From NCBI GenBank assembly GCA_043808095.1, contig JAZDFF010000035.1:1-57204 (forward strand): 57,204 bases of DNA. The letters run 5' to 3'. Origin of the DNA: Candidatus Omnitrophota bacterium (lineage in GTDB: Bacteria; Omnitrophota; Gorgyraeia; JAZDFF01). The notes beneath the pieces were generated by a model. That model was not told where the DNA came from, did no database searches, and saw only the letters and a program-made list of their open reading frames with translations. Positions 3,523 to 53,846 of this stretch are shown piece after piece (position 1 is the first letter of the stretch; each line of letters starts with the position of its first letter). Made by a program: the position numbers and the translations under genes.

Positions 3523-4973
3523 TACTTCCCAATGCAAAACTCCCCAAAAATTCTATCTAATATATCTTCGCTAGTCGTCTCGCCGGTTATCTCGCCTAAG
3601 GAGTCGAGTGAGCCTTTAAGGCAATAAGCAATCAGTTCTAAAGACTGCCTATTTTTGATCAAGTCTGCCGCTTCCTGTAAGTCCAAAAGCGCCCTTTTTA
3701 AGGCATCAATGTGCCGCGCGTTAGAAACCAGGGCCTCATCAGTAGCTATTATATCACCTTGCCAGATTTTTTTAAGTATTTGTTTTCTTAAATTATCCAG
3801 GCCTTTTCTTTCTAGAATAGATACACGCACTACCTGTTTAAATATCTCCCTTATTTTTTCGGGGTTGATTTTTTGCGTAAGGTCAATCTTATTAATCAGG
3901 GGGATAGTCTGTTTGTCCTTGGTCCTTTCTATAAGAAGGTAATCATCTTTAGATAATCTTTGGCTACCATCGAACAATAAAAGGACTAGGTCCGCCTCAT
4001 TTAATGATTTCTGGCTTTTTTGCACTGCCTTTTTCTCGATTAAATCCCGAGGCTCAAGAACGCCGGCAGTATCAGTTATCTTTAAAGGCACGCCTTCTAA
4101 GTTTATGACCTCTTCAATCACATCGCGGGTAGTCCCGGCGATAGGCGTTACAATGGCCCTGTCTTCTCCTAAAAGGGCATTTAAAAGCGAGGACTTACCG
4201 ACATTGGGTTTTCCGCAGATGACCGCGCTTATCCCCTCACGAAGGATCTTGCCTTGTTGGCCAGAGTCAATCAGGCCAGTTAATAATTTTTCCTTTTTTT
4301 CTATTTGCTTTAATATTTTTTGCCTTGGAAAGGATTCAATATCCTCATCGGGAAAATCTATTAGGGCCTCGAGGCGGGAAAGTATATAAAGGACCTCCTC
4401 TTTAGCCTCTTTTATTTTAAAGGATAAGGCGCCGCTTAGTTGATTGTAACCCACTTTCAAAGAGGCCTCGGTCTTGGCGCGGATAATATCTAAGACCGAC
4501 TCTGCCTGAACCAGGTCAATCCGGCCATTTAGAAATGCCCTCTTGGTAAATTCACCCGGTTCGGCAAGGCGCGCGCCATGGCCTAATACCAACTCCAGAA
4601 TCTTTCTTAAAGGAACGATCCCGCTGTGACAATTTATCTCTACAATATCCTCTTTGGTATAGCTCTTGGGCGAGCGCATTATTGTCAAAATAACCTCATC
4701 AATAATATCAGTCGATGGTCGATGGTCTATAGTCCGTCGTTTTTTATTTTTTTTCTGGTTTCTGTACTCTGGTTTCTGGTTTCTATCAATAATCCTTCCA
4801 TAATGCGTGGTATAGGTCTTAAACTCTGAAGGCCTGTTTCCGTTTCTGCCCACAAAAATTTCATCGGCAATCGCCAGGCTTTTTTTACCGCTGAGTCTCA
4901 CTATCCCAATACCCGCCTGTCCAATAGGGGTTGAAATCGCGGCAATAGTATCGTTTAAATCAATTTTTTTCAT
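3522..4973 (-). CDS. mnmE: tRNA modification GTPase MnmE (TrmE)
   Basis: DTIAAISTP, GEFTKRAFLNG, GKPNVGKSS, GTTRD, DTAG, NKID, C-terminal FCIGK. Confidence 0.97.
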   Translation of the reverse strand: MKKIDLNDTIAAISTPIGQAGIGIVRLSGKKSLAIADEIFVGRNGNRPSEFKTYTTHYGRIIDRNQKPEYRNQKKNKKRRTIDHRPSTDIIDEVILTIMRSPKSYTKEDIVEINCHSGIVPLRKILELVLGHGARLAEPGEFTKRAFLNGRIDLVQAESVLDIIRAKTEASLKVGYNQLSGALSFKIKEAKEEVLYILSRLEALIDFPDEDIESFPRQKILKQIEKKEKLLTGLIDSGQQGKILREGISAVICGKPNVGKSSLLNALLGEDRAIVTPIAGTTRDVIEEVINLEGVPLKITDTAGVLEPRDLIEKKAVQKSQKSLNEADLVLLLFDGSQRLSKDDYLLIERTKDKQTIPLINKIDLTQKINPEKIREIFKQVVRVSILERKGLDNLRKQILKKIWQGDIIATDEALVSNARHIDALKRALLDLQEAADLIKNRQSLELIAYCLKGSLDSLGEITGETTSEDILDRIFGEFCIGK

Positions 4974-6396
4974 TTCTAAATTCTCCTACCACAAATAATG
5001 ACCCGGTAACTAAAATCAAACCTTCTTTTTGCACAATCTCCCGGGCCTTGATTTTAGCCTCTTTTACAGTACTGGTTATAAAAACCTCTTTTCCTTTAAA
5101 ATATTGGGCCAAGTCACAAGGTGCACTTGCCCGAGGATTGTCCGCCTGAGTCAAAATCACTTTATCTGCCAAATCATAAAGCTCTTTACATATCCCTTCT
5201 ATATCTTTGTCATTGGAAATGCCTAAAACTAGAATTAGTTTTTTATATCCTCTGCCTCTGGCAGATCCGCCTTCGGCGGAAAAATTATCCCTGATTGCTT
5301 TTTTTAATACGGAGCTAGAGGCAATATTCTGTGCGCCGTCTAAAATGACTAAGGGGTCTTTTGAAATAACCTCGCATCTGGCCGGCCAGACAGTATTATA
5401 AAGTCCAGCTCTTATAAAATCAATGCCTACCTTAATATTGTGGCGCCTTAATGCCTCGATGACGGAAGCGGCTACTGTTGCATTAATAATTTGATGCTCG
5501 CCTAAGAGCCTTATTTTTAAATCTTTATATTCACCCATAATGCCTTTTACATTAAACCCTTCTTTTTTCTTCTGATAAGTTATATCTGTGCCTACCTCAT
5601 ATAATTTTGCACCAATCTCCTGACACTTATTTCTAATTACTTCAGCTACATCCTTTTCTTGAGGCGCGCTTATCACAATTGCCTGATATCCTGATATCCT
5701 GCGACCGAAGGGAGTCCCGAGTCCCTCGACTTCGCTCGGGATAAACTCCGTCGAGGGAGAACCTTTTATTATCCCTGCTTTCTCCGTCGCAATCTCTCTT
5801 AGAGTATTGCCTAATTTTTGGGTATGCTCATAACTTATAGGAGTGATGGCCGAGATCAAAGGATAAACTACATTAGTAGCATCGAGCCTTCCGCCTAAAC
5901 CAGTCTCTAAAACCACAAGGTCAACCTTTTTTTCTTTAAAATAAATGAAGGCTAAAGACGTATAGACCTCAAAAAAAGAAAGCGGTCCGTATTGAGAAGT
6001 TTTATTATAGGTTTCGATCTTAGGTCTTAGTCTTTCGACCAAATCCGCTAATTCGCCTTCAGAAATCATCCCTTCAAAATCTAATCTGGAATCTGGCATC
6101 TGGAATCTAGGATCTAAAATTCTAATCCTCTCCCTAAAATCCGCTAAATGCGGCGAGGTATAAAGACCGGTTTTATAGCCTGCCTCTCTTAGAATATAGG
6201 CGCAGAAAGCGCATGTTGAACCTTTGCCTTTGGTACCGGCGATATGTATACAGCGTAAATTATCTTGAGGATTATCTAATCTGGCCAAGAAACCCATGAT
6301 ACGCTCTAATTTCAAAGACTCCTCGTAAGACCAGGCAGGGATATTTTCGTAGTTAATGAAGGATTCTAAATATTGGATTACTTCTGGGTAGGCCAT
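4960..6396 (-). CDS. folC: Folylpolyglutamate synthase/dihydrofolate synthase
   Basis: HIAGTKGKGST, YTSPHL, ETGLGGRLDATN, EKAGIIK, TGSLF; start moved to ATG 6396 (upstream extension is repeat sequence). Confidence 0.95.
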   Translation of the reverse strand: MAYPEVIQYLESFINYENIPAWSYEESLKLERIMGFLARLDNPQDNLRCIHIAGTKGKGSTCAFCAYILREAGYKTGLYTSPHLADFRERIRILDPRFQMPDSRLDFEGMISEGELADLVERLRPKIETYNKTSQYGPLSFFEVYTSLAFIYFKEKKVDLVVLETGLGGRLDATNVVYPLISAITPISYEHTQKLGNTLREIATEKAGIIKGSPSTEFIPSEVEGLGTPFGRRISGYQAIVISAPQEKDVAEVIRNKCQEIGAKLYEVGTDITYQKKKEGFNVKGIMGEYKDLKIRLLGEHQIINATVAASVIEALRRHNIKVGIDFIRAGLYNTVWPARCEVISKDPLVILDGAQNIASSSVLKKAIRDNFSAEGGSARGRGYKKLILVLGISNDKDIEGICKELYDLADKVILTQADNPRASAPCDLAQYFKGKEVFITSTVKEAKIKAREIVQKEGLILVTGSLFVVGEFRNEKN

Positions 6397-6402
6397 TATT
6401 TT

Positions 6403-6475
6403 TACACCGCAAAGGCGCAAAAGTCCGCAAAGGCGCAAAATTTTATAATCAAATTCTTTGCGTTTTTGCGGCAAT
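6403..6475. repeat. Inverted array of degenerate ~9-nt CGCAAA repeats
   Basis: acaccgcaaaggcgcaaaagtccgcaaaggcgcaaaa...ctttgcgtttttgcgg; homologs at 20668-20790 and 25207-25472. Confidence 0.7.
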
Positions 6476-6550
6476 TTTGTGCCCGCCTTCGTTGAAACTT
6501 CGGCGGGCTGTTCTTCGAAGCTCTAGCGAAGGAAAACGGTTTAGTGGTAT

Positions 6551-39432: not shown

Positions 39433-40623
39433 TTATCCTCTTTGATTATTGGCAATAACTGCCTGTCCTAAACAAAGGCTGCTATCCGTGGCAGAAAACG
39501 CAGAATGGACCAATACACGAAAACCGTCTTCTCTCAGGCACCTTCTTCCTTCCTCTTTTAATATCCTGTTCTGAAAAACTCCGCCGCTTAAAACTACAGA
39601 ATTTAATTTAGTTTTTTCGCGGATAATCCTGCATACATCTCTCATCATGCTGATAATCGTATAATGGAATTTTAAGGCAACTTCATTTCTGGAAACTTTT
39701 TTTCTTAAATCCTTAACAATCTCTCTAAACATTGGCTGAGGGCTAATTACATAAACCTCATTAATATAATTTATCTTATAATTATACCCGATAACCCGCC
39801 TGCCTGCCGGTGAGGCAAGATAACCCGCCTGCCCTGAGCGAAGTCGAAGGAATAACCCGATAACTGAAGTAGCTAATTTCTCTAACTTTATCGCTGCCTG
39901 CGCCTCAAAATCAACTCTATCCCCCAGTCCCAAGAGCGAAGAGACGCCATCAAAAAGCCTGCCCATACTCGAAGAGGGCGGACAATTTATTTCTTTTTTA
40001 AGCATCTGTTTAAATATTCCGGTTTCTTTTTTATCCAATCTCTTTACAAAATCGATATTGAGCTTAGAGATTTTATCCTGGTATGTCTTATAAAGCCAGG
40101 CAAAGGCAACCCGTAAAGGCTCTTTTATGGCGGCCTCACCGCCGATAAGGGGGACATATTCAAGATGCGCAATTCTTTTATAGCCTTTTAAATCAGCGAC
40201 TAAAAACTCTGCGCCCCAGAGAGTTCCATCAGCGCCAAAGCCTGTTCCATCAAAACAGATACCTATAACAGGCCCTTTTAAATTATGCTCGAGATAGCAA
40301 CTGGCAATATGCGCATGATGGTGCTGGATACCTATTAGCTTAATTCTCATGTCGGCCTCATGCATGCCTTTGGCTAATTTGGTGGTGAGATATTCAGGAT
40401 GCAGGTCATAGGCAATCACCCTGGGCGTAATTTTTAAGTTTTTTAGTATATTTCTTAAATCCTTCTCGAATAATTCAAGGTTCTTGGGGTCTTCGAGGTC
40501 GCCGAAAGAATTGTTTACAAATAAAGATTTATCTTTGGCAACGCAGAAACCTGCTTTAAGCTGTCCGCCCAAAGCAAGGATGGGTTTTTTAAATCTTATC
40601 TCTGTCTTTATCTTTTTAAGCAT
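39433..40623 (-). CDS. hypF: Truncated HypF (Kae1-like C-terminal domain only)
   Basis: DLHPEY, QHHHAH, DGTGFG.DGT.WG.E, SSMGRLFD, LSGGVFQN; no acylphosphatase, Zn-finger or YrdC domains. Confidence 0.9.
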   Translation of the reverse strand: MLKKIKTEIRFKKPILALGGQLKAGFCVAKDKSLFVNNSFGDLEDPKNLELFEKDLRNILKNLKITPRVIAYDLHPEYLTTKLAKGMHEADMRIKLIGIQHHHAHIASCYLEHNLKGPVIGICFDGTGFGADGTLWGAEFLVADLKGYKRIAHLEYVPLIGGEAAIKEPLRVAFAWLYKTYQDKISKLNIDFVKRLDKKETGIFKQMLKKEINCPPSSSMGRLFDGVSSLLGLGDRVDFEAQAAIKLEKLATSVIGLFLRLRSGQAGYLASPAGRRVIGYNYKINYINEVYVISPQPMFREIVKDLRKKVSRNEVALKFHYTIISMMRDVCRIIREKTKLNSVVLSGGVFQNRILKEEGRRCLREDGFRVLVHSAFSATDSSLCLGQAVIANNQRG

Positions 40624-49010: not shown

Positions 49011-49343
49011 TTGCCGGCTGGGGCGAAGGGGGATAATTTTTATGCTGATATTATACAATAAAATAAATTAAATTGATATCAAATTTAAAAAACCGCTCTT
49101 GGAGTTAGATTTTCAAATACTTGGGAGATTATTTAGAAAGTGATCGAGTGGTTCCTTCGACTTCGCTCAGGACTCCCTCGGCCTCAAACAAGTTTGAGGG
49201 CCTCGGTCGCGAGTGTTCGGGGTTATAGGGTTTAAGGTTTTCCCTCATTGCATTCAAGACTTCCCTTCGGTCGCAAGGGGTCAAGGTATCGAGGGTTCGA
49301 GGCAAAAAGTGCGTGTCCCCGGAAATAAAGAACAAAATCTAAC

Positions 49344-53031: not shown

Positions 53032-53379
53032 GTTTAGCCTCCTCTTATTTTCTTTAATTATACCACTTTCATTTCTAAAAGGTAAGGGATTTAGATTATA
53101 CTAAAAAGACGGCGACGGCCGTTTTCTTTCGGCATGAATTTTGTGTTGTGCGAACCAAGATTCTCGTGTGACAGGATTGTGACAGGGGAAAGGCTCCTCG
53201 CTTCTGACAGTTTGAATGGTGGAGGCTCGGAGTTAGTGAATTCCAGAATTCCGGGGACACGTACTTTTTTAATTGCGGAGTTGAGAGATGAGATTGTGAT
53301 TGGTGTACAATACTTGTTAAGCTCTGGCTCGGGCGGAGCCTCGCCAGAGCCCGTTGTTTCTTACCTTATCGCAAGTAGA

Positions 53380-53644: not shown

Positions 53645-53718
53645 TGGGCGGAACAGGACTTGAACCTGCGACCTTTTGAATGTAAATCAAACGTTCTATC
53701 CAGCTGAACTATCCGCCC
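53645..53718 (-). tRNA. tRNA-Val(TAC), CCA not encoded
   Basis: GGGCGGA/TCCGCCC acceptor, TTTGA-TTTACAT-TCAAA anticodon arm, GGTTCAAGTCC, discriminator A. Confidence 0.93.
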
Positions 53719-53846
53719 GAAAAATATTTCTAACCTCCGCCAAAGGCGAATCTCATGCCTAAGGCGGATCTCATGCCGAAGGCAGATTAGCCTCTGGCTG
53801 AAGCCTTCGGCTGAAACTGCGCCAACCGCCCTGAAAGGCTTGAAGT

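What the first reader, a model, noticed from the sequence alone, without database searches (positions are those of the whole stretch)
5248..6118. FolC carries three independent in-frame insertions from three repeat families
Seen: (1) 5248-5280, twin hairpin tctgcctctggcaga-tccgccttcggcgga, encoding SAEGGSARGRG; same family as the tRNA leader at 53735-53815. (2) ~5680-5762, encoding GSPSTEFIPSEVEGLGTPFGRRISGYQ right after KAGIIK. It is built from cctgatat 8-mers plus a CCCTCGAC..CTCGGGACTCCCTTCGGTCGC element whose free intergenic homolog is at 49153-49275. (3) 6084-6118, atctgga x5, encoding LDPRFQMPDSRL after RERIRI. Established: analogous to Rickettsia palindromic elements that add peptide segments to proteins. 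Inference: ongoing repeat-driven protein loop expansion, or removal at the RNA level.
Basis: partly seen in the sequence, partly recalled or inferred. Interest (0 to 1): 0.75.

Follow-up and report, generated by a model that had tools for sequence, protein, structure and literature searches.

The report
Repeat-built extra loops in Omnitrophota FolC
An intact folate enzyme gene (folC) of an uncultured Omnitrophota bacterium carries three stretches of the genome's own tiny repeat DNA read in frame as floppy extra loops, one example of a little-described habit of this group in which the same protein loops are refilled with new repeats again and again.

Summary
folC (window 4960-6396, minus strand) is a full-length FolC/FPGS with three in-frame extras absent from solved FolC structures: a twin 15-nt mini-hairpin (5251-5280, 10 aa), a GC-rich hairpin module beside an 8-mer array (5677-5763, about 24 aa extra) and a heptamer array (6079-6117, about 13 aa). 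All three are predicted coil. Inserts 1 and 2 belong to dispersed, mostly intergenic repeat families of this genome.

The reading needs correction. Across 123 distinct Omnitrophota folC genes these are three recurrent slots. Slot 3 is old and filled in nearly all close relatives, with at least 32 different 7-8-nt words. Slot 2 runs from empty, to +3 units, to an array with a nested hairpin. Slot 1 holds single, twin or nested hairpins in 20 of 106. Contents turn over much faster than the protein, and two relatives carry one cassette in both slots.

Every gene stays in frame, which argues for translation and against RNA removal. No RNA data exist. The closest analogues are Rickettsia RPEs, cyanobacterial SDR/STRR repeats and heptameric SSRs. 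This scan had already noted the same habit in other Omnitrophota genes (pyrK, dapF, hisF, miaB, rsmA, alaS). The writing mechanism is unknown. The clade lacks MutS/MutL.

The parts
4960..6396 (-). folC (folylpolyglutamate synthase/dihydrofolate synthase), 478 aa, intact
   Evidence: Translation. Pfam Mur_ligase_M and Mur_ligase_C. PDB 1o5z E 5.9e-56. Omnitrophota orthologues at 61-69% identity.
5251..5280 (-). Insert 1 (slot 1, residues 373-382, SAEGGSARGR): two tandem 15-nt mini-hairpins, each a 6-bp stem with a 3-nt loop
   Evidence: 10-residue gap against 1o5z. Folds with z -3.3/-4.4. pLDDT below 50 at residues 375-381, coil. The same site is empty in 95 of 116 related loci and filled with single, twin or nested hairpins in 21. 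Family counts.
5677..5763 (-). Slot 2 (residues 212-240, GSPSTEFIPSEVEGLGTPFGRRISGYQAI): composite of GC-rich modules plus the remnant of an 8-mer array. About 24 aa more than the empty state.
   Evidence: Unaligned between the two HMMER domains against 1o5z. pLDDT below 50 at residues 215-236, coil. Orthologue states run from 4-6 aa, to 12-13 aa, to 19 aa or more.
5682..5701 (+). 8-mer tandem array CCTGATAT x2.5 inside slot 2
   Evidence: TRF. This word occurs only here in the genome.
5703..5758 (+). Dispersed GC-rich modules (GACCGAAGGGAGTCCCGAG; CCCTCGACTTCGCTCGGGA) and the closing arm of a 9-bp hairpin
   Evidence: blastn 60 nt at 95% to C12:32219-32278. 10 and 21 genome copies at up to 2 mismatches against 0 simulated. 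Hairpin. Core 5714-5758 occurs in many other contigs of three groundwater runs, with unrelated flanks.
6079..6117 (-). Slot 3 (residues 94-106, LDPRFQMPDSRLD): decayed heptamer array, unit ATCTGGA on the + strand
   Evidence: TRF period 7, 3.7 copies, at 6083-6108. 13-residue gap against 1o5z. Coil with block-mean pLDDT 65-79. Slot filled in 39 of 44 GTDB relatives with other words.
49153..49275 (.). Intergenic composite holding diverged copies of the slot-2 modules
   Evidence: Sequence. Only a 14-nt exact BLAST match. No ORF overlaps it.
53725..53830 (-). Run of GCC-N3-GGC mini-hairpins upstream of tRNA-Val, the same design class as insert 1
   Evidence: Sequence. tRNA-Val at 53645-53718. 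Fold z -3.6.

Best explanation
folC is a working gene. Three of its tolerant loops have been filled with the genome's own very small repeat DNA, and the filling is translated as disordered loop.

Two kinds of DNA are involved:
- (a) Short 'word' arrays, typically about four tandem copies of a 7- or 8-nt unit (about 28-32 nt).
- (b) Small GC-rich hairpin modules of 15-30 nt. These sit inside such arrays or in an AT-rich palindromic target (TTT^AAA at slot 1), and can themselves duplicate or nest.

Shown here:
- The extras are absent from canonical FolC.
- They are coil with low confidence in the model.
- Inserts 1 and 2 are copies of dispersed, mainly intergenic families.
- The same three loop positions are reused across the clade with different contents.
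- Contents change far faster than the protein.
- One cassette can occupy two slots of one gene.
- The frame is always kept.

Inferred: new arrays or modules are written by a copy-and-paste or template-switching process at DNA level. Selection then keeps only in-frame, stop-free copies in loops that tolerate them, which explains the steps of +3 units. The inserts are neutral or nearly neutral passengers in the manner of RPE/SDR elements, not functional domains. The enzyme that writes them is not identified. The clade's lack of MutS/MutL and a single RAYT-like Y1 transposase are candidate contributors only.
For: - Extras relative to solved FolC: gaps of 13 and 10 residues, and residues 213-241 unaligned.
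- Predicted loops: DSSP coil at residues 95-109, 212-239 and 373-386; pLDDT below 50 at 215-236 and 375-381.
- Dispersed families well above chance: 20 vs 2, 10 vs 0, 21 vs 0 and 92 vs 2 copies in the real vs the simulated genome. Most are intergenic, although ORFs cover 86% of the genome.
- The module core occurs in many other metagenome contigs.
- Slot reuse in 123 distinct folC genes:
  - Slot 3: 115 scored, lengths peak at 13 aa (48) and 15 aa (30); 34 carry arrays of at least 2.6 copies, with 32 different words.
  - Slot 2: 113 scored, 52 at 4-6 aa, 44 at 12-13 aa (= +21 or +24 nt), 11 at 19 aa or more.
  - Slot 1: 20 of 106 filled.
- Nested and expanded hairpin states at slot 1.
- Fast turnover: sisters L007 and L025 carry different words. 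Pairs at 87-93% protein identity have unrelated slot contents, while pairs at 96.6% or more have identical contents.
- Before/after case: L091 has a bare GTGTCAAA array in slot 2. L105 (91% identical) has the same array with a 26-nt hairpin nested in it, and the same array plus hairpin in slot 3 as well.
- L036 carries a 28-nt unit in both slots, with 10 copies in its genome and 0 in its sister's.
- Frame kept in all 45 GTDB loci. The one truncated gene, L009, has a point nonsense codon outside the slots.
- The same habit in other housekeeping genes of this genome: gltB, pheT, valS, mnmA, dapA, an AMP-ligase, an RnfC-like gene, a HypF-C-like gene and mnmE.
Against: - No expression or peptide data. 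No RNA run is listed, so translation of the inserts is inferred from frame conservation only.
- Surface exposure was not measured; only coil and low pLDDT are available.
- Some words are not dispersed. CCGACAA x4 occurs only at folC in two genomes, and the 8-mer of slot 2 occurs only here. At least some arrays may therefore arise in place and not be pasted in.
- Insert 3 on its own has no significant BLAST match elsewhere.
- The slot-2 composite is not more stable than shuffles (z about -1).
- No target-site duplication or terminal signature that would prove transposition was found.
- The tree used for gain/loss counts is weakly resolved: 16 of 42 inner branches are open, and FastTree was used.
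Confidence: 0.75

Rival explanations
1. Purely local origin. The arrays and mini-hairpins arise in place by replication slippage and hairpin-templated strand switching in a lineage without mismatch repair, with no mobile or copied element involved. Similar sequences at different loci would be convergent.
For: - Some words are unique to folC in their genome.
- Slot 1 sits in a native TTT|AAA palindrome that the hairpin simply extends.
- Slot-1 states look like stepwise word duplication.
- G000 lacks MutS_V and MutL domains at 95% completeness.
- 0 of 44 folC-relative genomes have a canonical MutS.
- 10 of 10 MutS-bearing Omnitrophota sampled have all three slots empty.
Against: - 60 nt of slot 2 is 95% identical to a copy on another contig, and the modules recur 10-21 times.
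- Identical 26-nt and 28-nt cassettes sit in two slots of one gene and at other loci of the same genome.
- The same TCCGCC/GGCGGA hairpin sits at slot 1 in FolCs only 49% identical.
- From recall: bacterial MutS corrects loops of up to about 4 nt, so its loss does not obviously favour 7-8-nt units.
- MutS-less L044, L047 and L051 have empty slots 2 and 3.
- The MutS contrast is confounded by phylogeny.
Confidence: 0.15
2. The inserts are selected, functional additions to FolC, for example flexible linkers, interaction or regulatory loops, or hairpins that act in the mRNA.
For: - The slots are kept filled over long times: slot 3 in 39 of 44 relatives.
- Slot 3 length is constrained around 13-15 aa.
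- The twin hairpin is unusually stable.
Against: - Sequence in the slots is not conserved at all: 32 and 35 different words.
- Contents are replaced between close relatives.
- Deep relatives and MutS-bearing Omnitrophota do without them.
- The same DNA fills unrelated enzymes and intergenic spacers.
- The inserts are predicted disordered.
Confidence: 0.06
3. The segments are removed before or after translation (an intervening-sequence-like excision from mRNA, or protein splicing), so the mature enzyme lacks them.
For: Hairpin-rich inserts could be RNase III-type substrates, as in rRNA intervening sequences (recalled). No RNA data exclude it.
Against: - Excision would lift the need for frame and stop-free sequence, yet every one of 45 GTDB loci and all the metagenome genes read keep the frame through slots of 4 to 36 aa.
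- Slot 2 grows in steps of exactly 3 units.
- Slot 3 has no structure to guide cleavage.
- Cutting an mRNA would not rejoin it.
- No intein motifs: Pfam finds only the Mur ligase domains.
Confidence: 0.03
4. Assembly artefact: repeats wrongly joined into folC when the metagenome-assembled genome was built.
For: Short-read contigs of the likely source run break at inserts 1 and 2 (records 1 and 2).
Against: - One independent contig spans insert 3 with a single difference (record 6).
- Record 2 runs about 50 nt into slot 2.
- The inserts are exactly in frame.
- Dozens of independently assembled relatives carry homologous fillings at the same codons.
Confidence: 0.01

Closest known systems
Rickettsia palindromic elements (RPE; Ogata et al. 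2000, recalled; described in the MITE review PMC10969869, passages read)
   Same: Dispersed palindromic repeat DNA found both between genes and inserted in frame in unrelated metabolic genes. It adds a peptide segment without destroying the protein.
   Different: RPEs are about 150 bp and fall into ten families with conserved peptides. Here the units are 15-60 nt, built from 6-9-nt words. They sit in recurrent slots whose contents are replaced, and they are accompanied by tandem heptamer/octamer arrays. No sequence relationship was tested or is expected.
Small dispersed repeats (SDR1-8) and STRR heptamer repeats of Nostoc/Anabaena (Elhai et al. 2008, Genome Res; recalled, since the paper is not held)
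   Same: Hairpin elements of about 21-27 nt embedded within tandem heptamer or octamer arrays, nested in one another, and present or absent between orthologous loci. This matches L091/L105, L004, L018 and L118 and the slot-1 states.
   Different: These are cyanobacterial and, as I recall, mostly outside coding sequence. Here they lie in frame inside housekeeping enzymes of Omnitrophota. Family identity was not tested.
Heptameric simple-sequence repeats of bacteria (Rehm et al. 2015, PMC4692102, passages read, which cite the 2007 survey by Mrazek and colleagues)
   Same: Period 7 is the dominant tandem-repeat class: 238 arrays in G000 against 53 simulated. [quoted passage not shown] Sequence and length vary between close relatives at the same locus.
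   Different: In Xanthomonas and Nostoc the repeats are G-rich, of one or two word types, and under-represented in coding regions. Here there are 202 distinct 7-8-nt words in one genome, and many arrays are read in frame.
REP/BIME elements with RAYT transposases (PMC3733652, abstract seen in the listing)
   Same: Small GC-rich extragenic palindromes in high copy number. G000 has one Y1-transposase gene flanked by inverted copies of a dispersed 17-nt word.
   Different: The flanking word (GGGGACACGYAC, 12 copies) is a different family from the folC modules. The protein scores below NCBIfam's RAYT cut-off (60.4 vs 80 bits). GTAG/CGTC tags were not examined across the copies. The folC hairpins begin TCCGCC or TCTGCC.

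Membership tests
FolC / FPGS-DHFS (Mur ligase superfamily) | Mur ligase middle and C-terminal domains | tested here: met
   PF08245 at 1.3e-10 and PF02875 at 5.2e-13, both above their cut-offs.
FolC / FPGS-DHFS (Mur ligase superfamily) | Full-length similarity to solved FolC/FPGS, including the P-loop GTKGKGS | tested here: met
   1o5z E 5.9e-56 and 1fgs E 1e-41. The GTKGKGS motif is aligned, and G54-T61 are invariant in 32 orthologues.
FolC / FPGS-DHFS (Mur ligase superfamily) | Enzymatic activity | not testable with these tools
   The reading frame is intact and all invariant columns are kept. No assay was possible.
Rickettsia palindromic elements | Element of about 100-150 bp with a family-specific conserved peptide | tested here: not met
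   Inserts are 30, about 72 and 39 nt. Slot peptides are not conserved. RPE size taken.
Rickettsia palindromic elements | Dispersed copies both intergenic and in frame in unrelated housekeeping ORFs | tested here: met
Rickettsia palindromic elements | Insertion at loops compatible with the fold | tested here: inconclusive
   Coil with low pLDDT between secondary-structure elements. Solvent exposure was not computed.
SDR-type small dispersed repeats within heptamer arrays | Hairpin element of 30 nt or less embedded in a tandem 7-8-nt array | tested here: met
   In relatives: L004, L018, L105 and L118. In the window: modules next to the 8-mer array in slot 2.
SDR-type small dispersed repeats within heptamer arrays | Presence/absence between orthologous loci, with the array intact in the empty state | tested here: met
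   L091 (bare array) against L105 (array plus 26-nt hairpin) at 91% protein identity.
SDR-type small dispersed repeats within heptamer arrays | Sequence membership in SDR1-8 | not tested
   The paper and its sequences are not held.
REP/RAYT system | RAYT gene flanked by inverted REPs of the family it mobilises | tested here: inconclusive
   A Y1_Tnp gene is flanked by an inverted 17-mer. It is below the NCBIfam RAYT cut-off. The flanking word is not the folC module family.
Heptameric SSR / LSSR | Tandem 7-nt units over-represented against a composition-matched model | tested here: met
   238 vs 53 arrays of period 7. Arrays of 3.5 copies or more: 132 real, none simulated.

The most novel reading that the evidence does not exclude
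In the MutS/MutL-less Omnitrophota there may be an active, enzyme-driven process that writes cassettes of about 28-30 nt (word arrays, with or without a nested hairpin) into fixed landing pads, including loops of essential enzymes, and overwrites older fillings. That would be a class of ultra-small mobile or templated DNA elements. It would make protein loops evolve orders of magnitude faster than the rest of the protein. It would also explain why arrays appear in quantised blocks of about four units, and why one cassette can appear in two slots of one gene at once.
Probability: 0.3. Interest if true: 0.8.

Novelty: new variant of a known kind. Interest (0 to 1): 0.6.

Why it matters
It shows that an essential-pathway enzyme can carry about 47 residues (10% of its length) of selfish or slippage-made repeat DNA in three loops, and that the same loops are refilled again and again across a phylum. 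This is a natural map of insertion-tolerant sites in FolC and other enzymes.

It is also a warning for annotation, alignment and phylogeny of Omnitrophota proteins, because slot columns are not homologous.

Finally, it gives a concrete system (L091/L105, L029/L036) for finding out how sub-30-nt repeats move. That question has been open since the cyanobacterial SDR/STRR and heptamer-SSR reports.

Four of my literature searches bear on this. Only the two that included the term 'Omnitroph' test it directly, and their listings showed no paper describing this habit in Omnitrophota.

Tried and rejected
- **RNA evidence.** The look-up of sequencing runs listed no RNA holder, so expression and RNA-level removal could not be tested.
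- **Read laying on three groundwater DNA runs.**
  - It gave only short contigs. No contig joined across an insert-free form.
  - The many 'skips' are low-similarity pieces of other organisms, and I do not use them.
  - Parts without cover are not evidence.
- **'Genome-wide word' idea.** I tested whether slot words are the genome's common words, and the result was mixed.
  - CCGACAA x3 occurs only at folC in G001 and G002.
  - The window's 8-mer is unique.
  - ATCTGGA has 7 loci.
  - The L036 unit has 10 copies.
- **Compensatory change in hairpin 2 (TCTGCC/GGCAGA vs TCCGCC/GGCGGA).** Rejected as evidence of selection on structure, because CTGCC..GGCAG hairpins are a family of their own in the genome and also occur in L095.
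- **MutS loss as sufficient cause.** Rejected, because MutS-less L044, L047 and L051 have empty slots 2 and 3.
- **Regex extraction of slots from distant FolCs** failed and was replaced by an alignment.
- **The Elhai 2008 paper** could not be fetched.
- **Structure library search and complex prediction** were not run, since they would not change the reading.
Full report
**The gene.** Window 4960-6396 on the minus strand encodes a 478-residue protein. It has Mur ligase middle and C-terminal domains. Its best solved relatives are T. maritima FolC 1o5z (E 5.9e-56) and L. casei FPGS 1fgs (E 1e-41). The closest database proteins are FolC of Candidatus Omnitrophota at 61-69% identity and 438-515 residues long. 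The window is contig C35 of a 1.64-Mb, 41% GC, 42-contig genome that is 95% complete. The longest ORF starts at a TTG at 6474, but all orthologues start at the position of the ATG at 6396.

**The three extras are real.**
- Against 1o5z the protein has a 13-residue gap after RERIRI. Residues 213-241 are left unaligned between two HMMER domains, where the T. maritima chain has about four residues. There is a 10-residue gap after NFS.
- In window coordinates the segments are 6079-6117 (slot 3), 5677-5763 (slot 2) and 5251-5280 (slot 1).
- An AlphaFold2 model built on 32 orthologues (mean pLDDT 78) shows all three as coil between regular elements. pLDDT is below 50 at residues 215-236 and 375-381, and block means are 65-79 around 95-109.
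- I did not compute solvent exposure.

**What the DNA is: insert 1.**
- It is two adjacent 15-nt hairpins, each with a 6-bp stem and a 3-nt loop. They fold as predicted, with z -3.3 and -4.4 against shuffles.
- The TCCGCC-N3-5-GGCGGA hairpin occurs 20 times in the genome against 2 in an order-3 Markov copy. The looser CYGCC..GGCRG class occurs 158 times against 38.
- Twin arrangements recur at five other places, including inside dapA.
- A 21-nt exact copy of the folC junction lies in an intergenic stretch of C29.
- Five of the six coding copies are read in the same frame, as S-A-x-G-G.

**What the DNA is: slot 2.**
- It holds an 8-mer array (CCTGATAT x2.5) and two 19-nt GC-rich modules. The modules recur 10 and 21 times at up to 2 mismatches, against 0 simulated.
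- A 60-nt stretch is 95% identical to C12:32219-32278. That copy lies at the 5' edge of the lnt ORF, before its first Pfam-matched residue, so its coding status is unresolved.
- The core 5714-5758 is present, with unrelated flanks, in many contigs of three groundwater runs.

**What the DNA is: slot 3.** It is a decayed heptamer array (period 7, 3.7 copies) with no secondary structure. Related arrays of the same word occur at six other loci.

**The genome is saturated with such DNA.**
- TRF finds 963 arrays against 363 in the simulated genome. Period 7 leads, at 238 against 53.
- Period-7 arrays of 3.5 copies or more number 132, against none simulated. [quoted passage not shown]
- There are 202 distinct 7-8-nt words.

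**The slots across relatives.**
- I took 45 folC loci from species-representative genomes and 80 from metagenomes, which gave 123 distinct genes.
- Slot 3:
  - Three deep relatives (L044, L047, L051, 44-50% identity) have the canonical short form, two are short, and 39 of 44 carry 11 aa or more.
  - In the larger set, lengths peak at 13 aa (48 of 115) and 15 aa (30).
  - 34 carry clear arrays: 32 of period 7 and 2 of period 8, with 32 different words.
- Slot 2:
  - 52 of 113 are 'empty' (4-6 aa).
  - 44 are 12-13 aa, that is +21 or +24 nt, or three extra 7- or 8-nt units.
  - 11 are 19 aa or more, with a GC-rich hairpin nested in the array.
- Slot 1:
  - 20 of 106 distinct genes are filled.
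  - The states are single hairpin, twin, hairpin nested in the loop of another, triple, or a different CCTGCC..GGCAGG-type palindrome between two hairpins.
  - The position is always between the F and K/R-Y codons, in a native TTT|AAA.
- On a FastTree of 120 genes with gappy columns removed, slot-1 presence needs at least 14 changes (label shuffles give 16-21), and slot-2 filling needs at least 26 (shuffles give 30-47). The tree is weakly resolved, so these are rough upper-leaning counts.

**Turnover and copying.**
- Pairs at 96.6% protein identity or more have identical slots. At 87-93% identity the slots are often unrelated in sequence and length.
- Sisters L007 and L025 (SH-aLRT 99) have CCGACAA x4 and AGTCACA x4 in slot 3.
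- L091 has a bare GTGTCAAA array in slot 2. L105, 91% identical, has the same array with a 26-nt hairpin nested in it, and the same array plus hairpin in slot 3 too. L091 has something else in slot 3.
- L036 has a 28-nt unit three times in slot 2 and twice in slot 3. Its genome holds ten copies at four or five loci, and its sister's genome holds none.
- Against simple dispersal, CCGACAA x3 occurs only at folC in the two genomes that carry it.

**Are the inserts translated?** No RNA run is listed. The argument is indirect.
- All 45 GTDB loci keep one frame through both variable slots. The only truncated gene, L009, has a point nonsense codon elsewhere.
- Slot 2 grows in steps of three units.
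- A segment removed from the RNA would be free of both constraints.

**Other genes of this genome.** The same modules sit in frame in gltB (two places), pheT, valS, mnmA, dapA, an AMP-dependent ligase, an RnfC-like gene, a HypF-C-like gene of the window, and mnmE next to folC.

**Candidate causes (inferred).**
- G000 has no MutS_V or MutL domain.
- None of 44 folC-relative genomes has a canonical MutS. 37 of 81 sampled Omnitrophota do have one, mostly in other families.
- In 10 of 10 MutS-bearing genomes examined, all three FolC slots are empty.
- Relatives are not independent, and three MutS-less genomes also have empty slots 2 and 3, so this is context and not proof.
- G000 has one Y1 transposase gene. 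It is above the Pfam cut-off but below the NCBIfam RAYT cut-off. It is flanked by inverted copies of a 17-nt word that has 12 genome copies, but this is a different family from the folC modules.

**What is known.**
- RPEs are the functional analogue but are about 150 bp.
- Heptameric SSRs with a four-unit preference are described for Xanthomonas and Nostoc, where they avoid coding regions.
- Hairpin SDRs nested in heptamer arrays are, as I recall, described for Nostoc, but that paper was not available.
- My two searches that included the term 'Omnitroph' listed no paper describing this habit in Omnitrophota.
- Earlier notes of this scan report the same habit in other Omnitrophota genes and word-built palindromes in this genome.

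**Verdict.** The RPE-like reading is right in spirit. The new points are slot reuse, quantised arrays and cassette sharing between slots. I rate it a new variant of a known kind.

Noticed in passing
window 4711-4784 (inside mnmE, 3525-4973 minus strand): mnmE carries its own in-frame filling: a TTTCTGG x4.7 array and a GTCGATG x2.4 array. Together they give about 24 extra residues in the N-terminal domain relative to solved MnmE (query 42-81 against chain 44-59 of 3geh). The TTTCTGG word forms 9 arrays in the genome.
   Followed up: partly
window 6404-6510 (folC-purH spacer): By eye, the spacer holds opposed arrays of an 8-mer (CGCAAAGG, then its complement) followed by a separate GC-rich hairpin. 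It looks like a word-built palindrome of the kind earlier notes describe for this genome.
   Followed up: no
window 39797-39851 (inside a HypF-C/Kae1-like gene, 39433-40623 minus strand): An in-frame CCTGCC..GGCAGG-type palindrome plus a CGAAGTCGAAGG module at about residue 268. The Pfam domain match spans 267 residues against a 241-position profile.
   Followed up: partly
G000 C31:73693-74316 (L057 1471-2094); also window 53246-53264: A single Y1-transposase (RAYT-like) gene flanked by inverted copies of a 17-nt word (core GGGGACACGTACC). The word GGGGACACGYAC has 12 copies in the genome, and a closely similar stretch lies in the window.
   Followed up: partly
G000 whole genome; 44 relatives: No MutS_V or MutL domain in G000 (95% complete), and no canonical MutS in any of 44 genomes holding a close FolC. 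37 of 81 sampled Omnitrophota have MutS, concentrated in a few families.
   Followed up: partly
L016, L115, L136, L141 (folC of relatives): A 57-nt element with 14-15-nt terminal inverted repeats, read in frame as NPVRNT..ISNGV. It sits after the HNI motif of FolC. The protein alignment shows the same peptide at a second position in another orthologue (P0027).
   Followed up: partly
alignment A1, C-termini of P0008, P0027, P0037, P0063, P0082 and others: Several orthologues replace the last few residues (FRNxK) with unrelated tails such as RELF.. or RTLFKSAG. This suggests repeat insertions at or near the stop codon.
   Followed up: no
L009 (folC) and G075:C14:54609-55313: Two otherwise intact folC orthologues each contain one in-frame TAG. 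In L009 it lies at the YFK*KK position, outside the slots. It could be a sequencing error, a pseudogene or recoding.
   Followed up: no
window 53725-53830: The leader upstream of tRNA-Val is a run of five GCC-N3-GGC mini-hairpins in an 18-nt period. It is strongly structured (z -3.6).
   Followed up: partly
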